Positions 24,780-63,758 of a stretch of 64,000 nt of DNA are shown one piece after another. Each line of letters begins with the position of its first letter. The first letter of the stretch is position 1. A program made the translations under genes and the position numbers. Origin of the DNA: a virus. A model generated the notes under the pieces. The model was not told where the DNA came from. It was given only the letters and a program-made list of their open reading frames with translations, and ran no database searches. Where the stretch lies: the IMG/VR virus record IMGVR_UViG_3300021963_005267, positions 42,584-106,583 of that record; one strand, written 5' to 3'.

Positions 24780-24860
24780 TCATGGCTAGAAAATGGCGAG
24801 CACATCATAAGAGCTCTGTTCGTGCAACAGCACGTAGAGTTCTTAAGAAACGTAAGTAAA

Positions 24861-25215
24861 GAATTGTTGTAACTCCTTCAAAGCGAAGGACTCTTGGACG
24901 CGGGTTCGACTCCCGCCAGGTCCACCATAAAATGTTTTTGTTGAGCTTGATGCTTTGACTGATCAACATAGCTACATAGGGTAGATAAGAACATTTTATA
25001 ATGGGCCTGCACTGGTTTCGACAGGGGTAGATAGTAGAGACGGCAACACGGTAGGCGATGACCGTAAATCAAGCAAAACAAGTAAACGCAAACGCATTTA
25101 CATCACAAGAGTTATTCGTAGTTAAAAGCGTTAAATTCGCTGCTAACGACGAAATGCTACAAGCAGCCTAATAAGCAACTCCGGGGCAGTTATGCCTTGT
25201 TACCCAAAATAACAG
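24861..25215 (+). ncRNA. ssrA: Circularly permuted (two-piece) tmRNA; outer ends approximate
   Basis: T-arm plus CAGGTCC-ACCA (ends 24927) precedes GGGCCTG (25003), giving an acceptor stem with G3.U70; tag frame 25088-25171 ends LQAA. Confidence 0.92.
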
Positions 25216-25243
25216 AAATGGCTACTTCGGTAGCCATTTTTTT
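25216..25243 (+). terminator. Rho-independent terminator
   Basis: AAATGGCTAC-TTCG-GTAGCCATTT plus T run. Confidence 0.85.
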
Positions 25244-25244
25244 A

Positions 25245-25273
25245 TTGACAACATCCTAAAAGTATCATACACT
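25245..25273 (+). promoter_or_regulatory. Sigma70-type promoter
   Basis: TTGACA-N17-TACACT. Confidence 0.6.
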
Positions 25274-29621: not shown

Positions 29622-29670
29622 GGTGCTATAAATATAGGGGACTTAGATCCCCTATTTTTTTGAAAGCACT

Positions 29671-61866: not shown

Positions 61867-61941
61867 GCGTCTATCGCCAAATGGAAAGGCAGGGGCCTCT
61901 AAAACCTCTATGCGTGGGTTCGATTCCCACTGGACGCACCA
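61867..61941 (+). tRNA. tRNA with CUA anticodon (amber suppressor)
   Basis: GCGTCTA/TGGACGC acceptor stem with ACCA, GCC/GGC D-stem, loop CT-CTA-AA, GTGGG-TTCGATT-CCCAC T-arm. Confidence 0.85.
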
Positions 61942-61960
61942 AATACAGTTATAAATAAAA

Positions 61961-62057
61961 TGCCGGACCTGTAACCATACTCCGGCTCCGCTGACGCGAA
62001 AACAGGATGGGCTGCGCTCACGGGGTTGATAGTTTCCCGACACAACAAAACTATCAC
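61961..62057 (+). ncRNA. Candidate pseudoknotted RNA after a TATAAATA promoter
   Basis: GCCGGA/TCCGGC, CCGcTGAcGCG/CGCTCACGG, TGATAGTTT/AAACTATCA; loop-loop CCTGT/ACAGG and CCAT/ATGG. Confidence 0.6.
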
Positions 62058-62077: not shown

Positions 62078-62653
62078 ATGAAATAGATTGAATATGCATG
62101 TAAGGACATAGTGTTCCATTTTAACAAAAAACACTTAGAAGATCAGACCATTCCCATGTGGGTCTTAAAATTCCATGGCGAAACTCTTTATGTGAATCAC
62201 GTCGATTGTTCTGTTCCTTGGAGTACCAAAGAAACACCAGATAACAATCATACTAAAGGTAGCATCAAAGTCAAAGATGTGCTGTTGCAGATCAGTGATA
62301 CTAACGAAGCTACAATTTCAAATCTCACTCTAATAGACAAATACAGACTTCGTAATCAAAAGTTGGGTATCACACGAGTGATGTTTAGACCGAGTACTAA
62401 GTTTCATAAGGCGCTACAGGCGAATGAATTTAAGCACAGTCCTTTTAAAACTATATACGGTCGTTGTAGTAGTCCGTTTATCATTTGTGATCTATTAAAC
62501 AAATCGGAAATTACTTTAGCTGCTCTCAAGTACACCAATGACTTTCGTATAGTACAACCTAACGAAACTTATTTCCAACAGTATGATGAGATCAAAGGTG
62601 ATAATATTCCAGTAGATTATGGACATCCTAGCACACCGTTTGAATATAGTTAA
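62078..62653 (+). CDS. Hypothetical protein with an in-frame TAG at codon 3 (amber read-through candidate)
   Basis: AAAGGA SD, ATG AAA TAG ATT GAA TAT GCA TGT AAG GAC ATA GTG, in frame with ORF 62111..62653. Confidence 0.7.
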
Positions 62654-62976: not shown

Positions 62977-63537
62977 GTGAAAAACTTCAATGAATTTAAT
63001 GCGGGCGATCGCGTTGAGGTTAAACTTCTAGAAAATTCGGTACATTTTCTTGTTGGCGAAATTTCAGAAGATAATATCAGCGAGTGTATAAAATGGATAG
63101 TCTATGAAAATCTAGACACCAGCAAACAAAAGATCCTAACACTGTATATCAACTCAACTGGCGGCAATCTTTACGATGCATTTGCCCTCATCGATGTGAT
63201 GAGATCTAGCACACATCAAATCCGAACGATTGGTATAGGAGCAGTAATGAGTGCAGCATTCCTTATATTTGCCGCTGGACATCAGGGTGAACGATATGCT
63301 GCTCGTAACACCAGCTATATGTGTCATCAATTTACAGAAAGTATGCACGACAAATATCACGACCTCAAGGCCACTATGCGAGAGAACGATCTCTGCAATC
63401 AAAAAATGATCAACATATTACGGGATTCAACAGGCTTGACAGCAAGTAAAATCAAAGTTAAACTACTACCAGCGAGCGATGTATACCTTAAGGCAGACGA
63501 ACTCATCGAGCTAGGCGTAGCGGATCACATCCTGTAA
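62977..63537 (+). CDS. clpP: ClpP-family protease subunit
   Basis: [25 protein letters not shown]. Confidence 0.85.
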
Positions 63538-63542
63538 TAAAT

Positions 63543-63758
63543 ATGGCTAAAGAATCAGTTTTAAAAATCTCAGGCACCATCACCGAAGTTTTACCTAACA
63601 CTACATACAGAGTGAAGTTAGAAACTGGAACAGAAATATTCGCTTATACCAGCGGAAAAATGCGCCAACATAATATTAAGATTTTGTTAGGCGATCAGGT
63701 ATCACTGGAGCTCAGCCCTTATGACCTTACTAAAGGAAGAATTGTTTACAGAAAATGA
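63543..63758 (+). CDS. infA: Translation initiation factor IF-1
   Basis: MAKE...EVLPN...SGKMR...[21 protein letters not shown]. Confidence 0.96.

What the first reader, a model, noticed from the sequence alone, without database searches (positions are those of the whole stretch)
61961..62057. Compact double-pseudoknot RNA downstream of the suppressor tRNA
Seen: a GC-rich island starting 4 nt after TATAAATA. Stems: P1 GCCGGA(61962-67)/TCCGGC(61981-86); P2 CCG-TGA-GCG/CGC-TCA-CGG; P3 TGATAGTTT(62027-35)/AAACTATCA(62048-56). The P1 loop carries CCTGT and CCAT, complementary to ACAGG(62002-06) and ATGG(62007-10) in the P2 loop; CGGG at the 3' end of P2 could also pair with CCCG in the P3 loop. 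Established: HDV-like theta ribozymes occur next to phage tRNAs, but I cannot map this RNA onto that consensus. Inference: a riboswitch-like leader, a ribozyme, or an RNA partner of the downstream protein.
Basis: partly seen in the sequence, partly recalled or inferred. Interest (0 to 1): 0.75.

Follow-up and report, generated by a model that had tools for sequence, protein, structure and literature searches.

The report
New pseudoknotted RNA gene in phage tRNA clusters
The GC-rich stretch after the suppressor tRNA belongs to a widespread, previously uncatalogued family of about 100-base folded RNAs that large uncultivated water phages carry once per genome, mostly inside their tRNA gene clusters; its function is still unknown.

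Summary
The three hairpins at 61962-62056 (+) exist, and the loop-loop pairing CCUGU (61968-72) x ACAGG (62002-06) is a true pseudoknot.

Three pattern scans of IMG/VR plus a covariance model gave 100 further copies, 83 distinct. On these, 98.6% of cells pair, 20 of 27 pairs show compensatory changes, and no shuffle in 500 reaches this. The pseudoknot occurs in 16 different complementary sequence versions.

The second proposed pairing (CCAU x AUGG) is not supported. The third (CGGG x CCCG) fits the variation but is not significant. So this is one proven pseudoknot, not two.

The RNA is tied neither to the suppressor tRNA nor to the downstream amber-codon gene:
- about half of the copies lie 3-20 nt after a tRNA (Gly most often) and/or 5-11 nt before another, on the same strand;
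- none of 99 other loci of the downstream gene has it;
- five large phage records (190-328 kb) hold exactly one copy, and two near-complete relatives hold none.

No Rfam 15 family matches, and it is not HDV-like/theta.

My reading is a self-contained accessory RNA gene acting as a free RNA. A new self-cleaving ribozyme remains open. First readers flagged look-alikes on other DNA earlier in this scan, without follow-up.

The parts
61950..61957 (+). TATAAATA, a T4-late-promoter-like motif 4 nt upstream of P1; the transcript would start at about 61963
   Evidence: Sequence. All 6 T[AG]TAAATA sites in the window are on the + strand and none on the - strand. The exact 8-mer is not enriched: 4 found against 5.9 expected. 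The same motif lies 4-7 nt before P1 in at least 7 other copies that have no upstream tRNA. Promoter function is inferred from what is known of T4 late promoters.
61962..61967 (+). P1, 5' strand (GCCGGA)
   Evidence: Pairs with 61981-86. In the family 5 of 6 pairs show compensatory changes.
61968..61972 (+). PK1, 5' strand (CCUGU), directly continuing P1 inside its loop
   Evidence: Pairs with 62002-06. All 5 pairs are compensatory, and there are 16 different helix versions among 83 distinct sequences.
61973..61980 (+). Rest of loop L1 (AACCAUAC); variable, and replaced by an extra hairpin in some relatives
   Evidence: Alignments. The proposed pairing of CCAU with AUGG is not supported.
61981..61986 (+). 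P1, 3' strand (UCCGGC)
61988..61998 (+). P2, 5' strand
   Evidence: Covariation fixes the register: 61992-94 pair with 62018-20, and 61995-98 pair with 62013-16.
61999..62001 (+). Invariant AAA junction between P2 and PK1
   Evidence: Invariant in the 25-sequence alignment and in all rows shown.
62002..62006 (+). PK1, 3' strand (ACAGG)
62007..62012 (+). Invariant AUGGGC junction (one ACGGGC variant, in L247)
   Evidence: This stretch was part of two of the three search patterns, so its invariance is partly imposed by the search. The scan did not impose it.
62013..62025 (+). P2, 3' strand, with C62017 bulged and G62023 unpaired (G or A in the family)
62027..62035 (+). P3, 5' strand
   Evidence: All 6 modelled pairs are compensatory. 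Stem length varies from 6 to 10 bp among relatives.
62036..62047 (+). Loop L3 (CCCGACACAACA); family consensus CCYGNCA followed by an A-rich tail
   Evidence: CCYGACA in 76 of 80 distinct sequences. It is kept in the scan that did not impose it: 35 of 39 distinct new sequences match CCYGAC and the other 4 still fit CCYGNC.
62048..62056 (+). P3, 3' strand
61867..61941 (+). Neighbour, not a part of the element: tRNA with anticodon CUA (amber suppressor), CCA encoded, ending 20 nt before P1
   Evidence: ARAGORN and Rfam tRNA at 55.9 bits.
62078..62653 (+). Neighbour, not a part of the element: gene with an in-frame TAG at codon 3 (62084-86) and SD AAGGA at 62066-70

Best explanation
The stretch 61962-62056 (+) is a self-contained gene for a small structured RNA of a family that is not in Rfam.

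Fold (shown by covariation):
- Hairpin P1 is continued without a break by a 5-bp pseudoknot helix (PK1), formed between the first five loop bases and the loop of hairpin P2.
- P1 and PK1 can therefore stack into one helix of about 11 bp, with P2 running alongside.
- They are joined by invariant junctions (AAA, AUGGGC, one U).
- A third hairpin, P3, has a variable stem length and presents a nearly invariant loop, CCYGNCA followed by A's.

Expression (inferred): the RNA is made on the + strand. In some phages it comes from a T4-late-like promoter just upstream, as in this window. In others it lies within a tRNA operon, where RNase P cutting at the next tRNA and ordinary tRNA 3'-end processing of the preceding one would release a stable species of about 100 nt.

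Function (inferred, not shown): it is single-copy, accessory and indifferent to what lies downstream. I therefore read it as acting as a free RNA, either the RNA part of, or a decoy for, a protein of the translation or RNA-metabolism machinery. The pseudoknot core would be the stable body and L3 the recognition loop.

It is not a device that controls the amber-codon gene next to it.
For: Structure:
- 83 distinct sequences, 27 pairs, 98.6% of cells paired, 20 pairs with compensatory change, 0 of 500 shuffles as good; slid controls give 33-50% paired.
- PK1 occurs in 16 sequence versions.
- A mutual-information scan finds no further covarying pairs.

Strand:
- The G61998-U62013 equivalent is G-U in 83 of 83 sequences, and further G-U/U-G pairs occur in P1, P2 and P3. 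On the other strand these would be A-C mismatches.
- All flanking tRNAs are co-oriented with the element.

Autonomy, among 58 distinct copies:
- 26 have a tRNA ending 3-20 nt upstream (Gly 14, CUA 7).
- 13 have a tRNA starting 5-11 nt downstream.
- 17 have an SD and ORF within 60 nt, belonging to at least 5 unrelated gene families.
- 12 have no tRNA within 1.5 kb.
- Several are followed by a terminator or by a new sigma-70-like promoter before the next gene.
- None of 99 other loci of the downstream gene has the element.

Copy number and distribution:
- Exactly one copy in each of five records of 190-328 kb, four of them at least 92% complete.
- No copy in two 93%-complete 330-kb relatives.

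P3 stem length varies from 6 to 10 bp while L3 stays fixed. That fits a displayed loop better than a loop docked at a fixed distance.
Against: - There is no expression or end-mapping data; no RNA run holds this DNA.
- No partner protein was found. The most frequent neighbours (metallophosphoesterase in 19 of 58 loci, RpoZ-like 14, AAA_33 kinase 14) may reflect shared ancestry of the phages.
- The Ro60-like neighbour is absent from 3 of 4 complete genomes that have the RNA.
- No antisense target for L3 stands out in the window.
- Invariant junction bases around a pseudoknot are equally typical of ribozymes and ligand aptamers.
- Part of the invariance of L1, L2 and L3 was imposed by my search patterns.
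Confidence: 0.5

Rival explanations
1. It is a new class of small self-cleaving ribozyme that cuts the polycistronic tRNA or late transcript. This would be functionally analogous to theta or hammerhead ribozymes next to phage tRNAs.
For: - Size of 95-125 nt, a covarying pseudoknot and about 20 invariant junction or loop bases.
- Promiscuous genomic context and a phage-only distribution.
- The topology partly resembles pistol: the P1 loop pairs with the strand following the left shoulder of P2 (PMC4604425).
- P1 often starts 3-10 nt after a tRNA CCA end.
- End-healing-type neighbours, a metallophosphoesterase and a P-loop kinase, occur in 14-19 of 58 loci.
Against: - No Rfam ribozyme model matches six diverse members, even at E up to 5-10.
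- There is one copy per genome, although these genomes hold many tRNA junctions.
- No conserved base lies at either edge of the element.
- In several phages a promoter-like motif sits right at its 5' edge, so a 5' cut would be pointless there.
- No biochemical data exist.
Confidence: 0.2
2. It is a cis-acting regulatory leader (a riboswitch or protein-binding operator) that controls the gene or tRNA immediately downstream. In this window that is the amber-codon gene.
For: - In the window, L021/L110 and L125 it lies 10-20 nt before the SD of the amber gene. In seven others it lies 3-5 nt before the SD of a 57-61-aa lipoprotein gene.
- P3 is followed by a U-run in 17 of 58 copies.
- The invariant junction bases would suit a ligand pocket.
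Against: - The downstream genes are unrelated to each other. 13 of 58 copies are followed by a tRNA, and others by a terminator or a fresh promoter.
- 99 homologues of the amber gene do without it and use other leaders.
- The window copy has no U-run, and its SD (62066-70) is not sequestered in the fold.
- An invariant L3 is not expected for a simple terminator.
Confidence: 0.1
3. It is a passive stability or processing element: a nuclease-resistant cap at the 5' end of late transcripts, or an insulator at the 3' end of tRNA operons.
For: - Other TATAAATA sites, and the other leaders of the amber gene, are also followed at once by GC-rich hairpins.
- The element often ends a tRNA operon.
- Stems P1 and P3 sit at the two ends of the element.
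Against: Simple hairpins do that job in the relatives. A passive cap would not need about 20 invariant unpaired bases, a pseudoknot kept in 16 versions and a fixed 12-14-nt loop. It is also absent from close relatives.
Confidence: 0.12
4. It is a chance GC-rich palindromic stretch or a DNA-level site (recombination, packaging) with no RNA function.
For: On the single sequence the fold is only z -2.0, and the minus strand folds equally well at z -2.5.
Against: Compensatory changes in 20 of 27 pairs, strand-specific G-U pairs, constant orientation with the tRNAs and hundreds of copies.
Confidence: 0.01

Closest known systems
T4 small stable RNAs C and D (species 1 and 2 RNA; AF158101 70908-71171)
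   Same: Small stable RNAs of 119-139 nt with no known function. They are encoded on the tRNA strand within or at the end of a phage tRNA cluster, 1-6 nt from their neighbours, and so are presumably released by the tRNA-processing enzymes. This matches the position of most family members and the T4-like character of these phages.
   Different: There is no homology: model R1 scores about 3 bits. T4 RNA C carries a tRNA-like T-arm, which this RNA lacks. The pseudoknot and the invariant loops have no counterpart.
HDV-like theta ribozymes of gut phages (Kienbeck et al. 2024, PMC10879173)
   Same: Pseudoknotted RNAs found next to phage tRNAs, often suppressor tRNA(CUA), on the same strand and downstream of the tRNA.
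   Different: Theta ribozymes have the HDV nested double pseudoknot with a catalytic C in J4/2. They cleave within 5 nt of a tRNA end that mostly lacks an encoded CCA, and occur mainly in gut phages. Here the covarying topology is different: the 3' strand of PK1 lies inside the P2 loop. The tRNAs encode CCA, the spacer is 3-21 nt, and no Rfam model of any family, HDV-like ones included, matches the element.
Pistol self-cleaving ribozyme (PMC4604425)
   Same: The loop of a short 5' hairpin P1 pairs with the strand that follows the left shoulder of P2, so P1 and the pseudoknot can stack. Pistol is also frequent in phage DNA.
   Different: Pistol has a P3 hairpin between the pseudoknot strand and a strictly 2-nt GU junction that holds the cleavage site. 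Here that place is taken by AUGGGC(U) with no hairpin, and P3 lies outside P2. The conserved bases differ, and no Rfam model, pistol included, matches the element.
Large ornate phage-associated RNAs near tRNAs (GOLLD, ROOL)
   Same: Structured RNAs of unknown function, often in phages and next to tRNA genes (my own knowledge, and bioRxiv 10.1101/2024.12.08.627333 as listed).
   Different: Those RNAs are 400-800 nt long and form multimeric cages. This one is about 100 nt, and none of the Rfam matches listed falls on the element.

Membership tests
HDV-like / theta ribozyme | Nested double pseudoknot in the order P1-P2-P3-P3'-P1'-(P4)-P2', with the 3' strand of P2 at the 3' end | tested here: not met
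   The covariation-supported order is P1, PK1, P1', P2, PK1', P2', then P3. The 3' strand of PK1 lies inside the P2 loop, and P1 is closed by a 13-nt loop that is too short to hold P2 and P3.
HDV-like / theta ribozyme | Catalytic C as the first base of J4/2, and a match to HDV-type models | tested here: not met
   No J4/2 exists, because ACAGG is followed directly by AUGGGC. No Rfam model of any family, HDV-like ones included, matches the element at E up to 10 or 5 in six diverse members.
HDV-like / theta ribozyme | Cleavage site within 5 nt of the tRNA 3' end; tRNAs mostly without encoded CCA (PMC10879173) | tested here: not met
   In the window P1 starts 20 nt after an encoded CCA. In the family the spacers are 3-21 nt, also after encoded CCA. 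Half of the copies have no upstream tRNA.
HDV-like / theta ribozyme | Self-scission in vitro | not testable with these tools
   This needs transcription and cleavage assays.
Pistol ribozyme | Pseudoknot between the P1 loop and the junction after the left shoulder of P2 | tested here: met
   PK1 has this topology (description).
Pistol ribozyme | P3 hairpin nested in P2, followed by a strictly 2-nt junction holding the cleavage site; 10 conserved bases; match to the Rfam model | tested here: not met
   There is no hairpin between PK1' and P2', only the 6-7 nt AUGGGC(U). P3 lies 3' of P2. No Rfam model, pistol included, matches the element.
Any Rfam 15 family (riboswitches, ribozymes, sRNAs; 4227 models) | Score against the family covariance model | tested here: not met
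   In the window nothing overlaps 61961-62057 at the gathering threshold or at E up to 10. Nothing overlaps the element in L143, L199, L250, L214 or L173 at E up to 5.
T4-type stable RNAs of tRNA clusters (rnaC/rnaD) | Encoded within a phage tRNA cluster on the tRNA strand, a few nt from neighbouring tRNAs | tested here: met
   26 of 58 distinct copies lie 3-20 nt after a tRNA and 13 lie 5-11 nt before one, all on the same strand. The window copy follows a lone tRNA at 20 nt.
T4-type stable RNAs of tRNA clusters (rnaC/rnaD) | Sequence or structure homology to T4 rnaC/rnaD | tested here: not met
   R1 run with filters off on the T4 tRNA region: the best score on rnaD is 3.0 bits, E 1.3.
Cis-regulatory leader / riboswitch | Consistent position in the 5' UTR of one gene family or pathway | tested here: not met
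   The downstream neighbours are tRNAs, at least 5 unrelated ORF families, terminators or promoters. The element is absent from 99 homologous loci of the window's downstream gene.
Y RNA (partner of a Ro60/TROVE protein) | Co-occurrence with a Ro60-like gene | tested here: not met
   A DUF2828/DUF7788 protein lies just upstream in 7 of 58 loci. Its nearest named Atlas clusters are TROVE/vWA_Ro60. But DUF7788 is present in only 1, and TROVE in 0, of 4 complete genomes that carry the RNA.

The most novel reading that the evidence does not exclude
The family is a new class of catalytic or ligand-binding RNA that large phages add to their tRNA sets. One version is a self-cleaving ribozyme with a pistol-like P1/pseudoknot stack but a different active-site junction (AAA / AUGGGC). 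Another is a trans-acting RNA that disarms a host factor acting on tRNAs or on translation, possibly helping the phage's own suppressor tRNA to work. The RNA follows that tRNA directly in 7 of 58 distinct copies.
Probability: 0.25. Interest if true: 0.85.

Novelty: categorically new. Interest (0 to 1): 0.7.

Why it matters
Large phages carry their own pieces of the translation apparatus; in this window these are a tmRNA, an IF-1 gene and a suppressor tRNA. What rides along in their tRNA clusters is poorly known: the T4 stable RNAs C and D still carry no assigned function in the T4 record.

This is a compact RNA with a firmly supported fold, including a pseudoknot kept through 16 different sequence versions. 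It has about 20 invariant unpaired bases, hundreds of copies in uncultivated phages and a one-per-genome, present-or-absent distribution. That is the profile of ribozymes, aptamers and RNP cores.

It is small enough for immediate biochemical testing (self-cleavage, in-line probing, pull-downs) and for structure determination.

The work also corrects a tempting but wrong reading: that this RNA is the switch of the neighbouring amber-gated gene.

Caveat: large unnamed catalogues of candidate viral RNAs exist (PMC10690425) and I could not search their sequences.

Tried and rejected
- **Rfam.** Gathering and permissive scans of the window and of five diverse members gave nothing on the element.
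- **HDV/theta mapping by hand.** The topology is incompatible.
- **Upstream open reading frame.** AUG 62007 to UAA 62064 is broken in L021 by a 1-nt insertion.
- **Second loop-loop pairing CCAU x AUGG.** No covariation.
- **Other tertiary pairs.** The mutual-information scan shows only the annotated pairs.
- **Alternative pairing of L3 CCUG with L2 CAGG.** L3 does not follow the PK1 changes.
- **Homology with other leaders of the amber gene** (two-hairpin and GGGGG-UGAAAG-CCCCC types). R1 finds nothing there.
- **T4 rnaC/rnaD homology.** None.
- **Cultured phages (INPHARED).** No blastn match at E up to 1.
- **Prokaryote genomes.** This is not proof of absence.
- **Antisense targets of L3 in the window.** The best duplex, -15.3 kcal/mol, lies within the shuffled range.
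- **Ro60-like partner.** Rejected as a general rule.
- **CsrA-type GGA motif and 16S 790-loop mimicry in L2.** These bases covary away in relatives.
- **RNA evidence.** No RNA holder was listed.
- **Literature.** Searches by motif sequence and by topic found no description.

Full report
**Setting.** The window is the last 64 kb of a 106.6-kb IMG/VR phage fragment. Genes run on the + strand. They include a tmRNA (24835-25262), a ClpP-like protease and IF-1. A tRNA with anticodon CUA and an encoded CCA lies at 61867-61941. The finding covers the next 97 bases.

**Checking the observation.** The minimum-energy fold contains all three hairpins. On this one sequence the fold is only modestly better than shuffles (z -2.0; 10 of 200 fold as well), and the minus strand folds as well. 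Short loop-loop complementarities of 4-5 nt are expected by chance fairly often; I estimate roughly 1 in 10 for a 5-mer between loops of this size. The single sequence therefore cannot decide the matter.

**Relatives.**
- The downstream gene has many homologues, but their upstream regions are different. Only one group (L021-25) carries the element. There it is identical over P1 and P2 and follows an ORF instead of a tRNA.
- A scan that fixed only the two loop motifs returned 42 loci, with visibly covarying stems.
- An alignment of 25 distinct copies gave 26 consensus pairs, 14 of them with compensatory changes.
- This brought the set to 100 copies, 83 distinct, at 46-134 bits.

**Structure.**
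- On the 83 distinct sequences, 98.6% of cells pair and 20 of 27 pairs show compensatory changes. None of 500 column shuffles reaches any of the five measures. Sliding the partners by 1-3 columns drops pairing to 33-50% (same result on 58 sequences).
- All pairs of the loop-loop helix PK1 (61968-72 with 62002-06) covary. It exists as CCUGU/ACAGG, CCCGU/ACGGG, CUUGU/ACAAG, CCUC/GAGG, CCCAC/GUGGG, UCCAG/CUGGA, CCGGU/ACCGG, CUAGU/ACUAG and eight more versions.
- Because PK1 continues P1 without a gap, the two can stack. P2 must then run back alongside them, linked by the invariant AAA and AUGGGC.
- Covariation corrects the P2 register: C61995-G62016, G61996-C62015 and C61997-G62014 pair, and C62017 is bulged.
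- It also shows that the base of P2 uses G62024/G62025, with G62023 (G or A in relatives) unpaired.
Its 5' side is altered or replaced by an inserted hairpin in many members while AUGGGC never changes.
- The third idea, L3 CCY with RGG at the foot of P2, fits every sequence (G-U 67, G-C 11, A-U 5, never A-C). It is statistically empty, because 227 of 500 shuffles do as well.
- A mutual-information scan found no other covarying pair.
- Invariant or frequent G-U pairs, and constant co-orientation with tRNAs, fix the + strand as the RNA strand.

**What it belongs to.** Among 58 distinct copies:
- 26 have a tRNA ending 3-20 nt upstream (Gly 14, CUA 7);
- 13 have a tRNA starting 5-11 nt downstream;
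- 12 have no tRNA within 1.5 kb;
- 17 are followed within 60 nt by an SD and ORF: the amber gene in 3-4, a 57-61-aa lipoprotein in 7, and others;
- 17 have a U-run after P3.

Some copies are followed by a terminator or by a new promoter before the next gene. None of 99 other loci of the amber gene has the element. Five large records (190-328 kb, four at least 92% complete) hold exactly one copy each. Two 93%-complete 330-kb relatives of this phage hold none.

The element is therefore a single-copy accessory RNA gene. It is neither a general tRNA-junction device nor the leader of one gene.

In this window, and in at least seven other copies, a T[AG]TAAATA motif lies 4-7 nt before P1. All six such motifs in the window are on the coding strand, though the exact 8-mer is not enriched. 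By analogy with T4 late promoters (my own knowledge), transcription would start at the first bases of P1.

**Comparison with known RNAs.**
- No Rfam 15 family matches the element in six diverse members, even at permissive thresholds.
- Theta ribozymes are HDV-like, cleave within 5 nt of tRNA ends that mostly lack CCA, and occur mostly in gut phages. The topology found here is incompatible with that fold.
- Pistol ribozymes share the pseudoknot between the P1 loop and the junction. They require a nested P3 and a 2-nt cleavage junction, both absent here.
- T4 RNAs C and D are the closest analogues by position but are not homologous.
- No cultured phage in INPHARED has the element. A limited scan of prokaryote genomes gave only chance matches.
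- Literature searches found no description.

**Function.** Nothing here shows function directly.
- No RNA data set holds this DNA.
- A search for a partner found frequent neighbours: a metallophosphoesterase, an RpoZ-like protein and an AAA_33 kinase. It also found a Ro60-like DUF2828/DUF7788 protein directly upstream in 7 loci. That protein, and TROVE proteins, are missing from most complete genomes that carry the RNA.
- L3 has no outstanding antisense target in the window.

I commit, at about 0.5, to a free small RNA. It would be released by promoter-proximal initiation or by tRNA processing and act in trans, with the pseudoknot core as body and L3 as recognition loop. The grounds are single copy, patchy presence, indifference to the downstream gene, and a variable P3 length beneath a fixed loop. 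A new self-cleaving ribozyme is the main rival (0.2). Then come a passive stability element (0.12) and a cis-regulator (0.1).

**Earlier notes of this scan.** First readers flagged look-alike three-hairpin RNAs after tRNAs on other genomes, without follow-up. Two follow-up reports described the amber-gated gene next door. I saw the same conservation: TAG is kept ten codons before VFHFNK in about 100 homologues, while L018 has ATG at that very position. I treat that as a separate finding.

Noticed in passing
window 62078-62653 (TAG at 62084-86); L002-L106: The downstream gene starts ATG-AAA-TAG and then continues in frame for 189 codons. About 100 homologues keep an in-frame TAG ten codons before the conserved VFHFNK, after 1-9 variable codons. 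L018 has ATG at exactly the TAG position and no tRNA in the fetched locus. The protein has no Pfam or PHROG match. Earlier reports of this scan describe it as an amber-gated gene.
   Followed up: partly
L240 against L162 (about 85 nt upstream of the element in each): Two nearly identical tRNAs differ in the anticodon: CUG (Gln) in L240 and CUA (amber suppressor) in L162. This suggests that the suppressor derives from tRNA-Gln and reads UAG as Gln. These tRNAs are preceded by an ATAATTACGT promoter-like box.
   Followed up: partly
window 24835-25262: A phage-encoded tmRNA (beta-proteobacterial or permuted type by Rfam; tag peptide ending in LQAA). Relatives carry tmRNAs with different tags, in some of them next to the suppressor tRNA (L011, L173).
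   Followed up: no
window 62977-63537 and 63543-63758: ClpP-like protease and translation initiation factor IF-1 genes lie directly downstream, adding to the translation and protein-quality-control set of this phage.
   Followed up: no
L003, L004, L027, L043, L085 and L028, L037, L050, L053, L089 (upstream of the amber gene): Other phages place different structured leaders between a TAAATA motif and the SD of the amber gene. One is a two-hairpin type (AAAGUCC...GGACUUU plus CAGG..CCUG). The other is a single GGGGG-UGAAAG-CCCCC hairpin, sometimes with a U-run. They are not detectably related to the element.
   Followed up: partly
window 29627-29665: TATAAATA is followed after one base by a perfect hairpin AGGGGA-CUUAGA-UCCCCU and a U7 run. 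This is a promoter-like box immediately followed by a terminator-like hairpin.
   Followed up: no
L155:3939-5390 (-) and 6 other loci: A 484-aa DUF2828/DUF7788 protein lies immediately upstream of tRNA-Gly(UCC) plus the element, followed by a terminator. Its nearest named Atlas clusters are viral TROVE/vWA_Ro60 proteins. The arrangement recalls rsr-Y RNA operons but is confined to one lineage.
   Followed up: partly
L212:4869-5513, L200:5192-5782, L116:886-1308: A calcineurin-type metallophosphoesterase (19 of 58 loci, about 0.5 kb downstream), an AAA_33 P-loop kinase (14) and an RpoZ/Rpb6-like protein (14) recur downstream of the element on the same strand. The first two could be an RNA end-healing pair.
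   Followed up: partly
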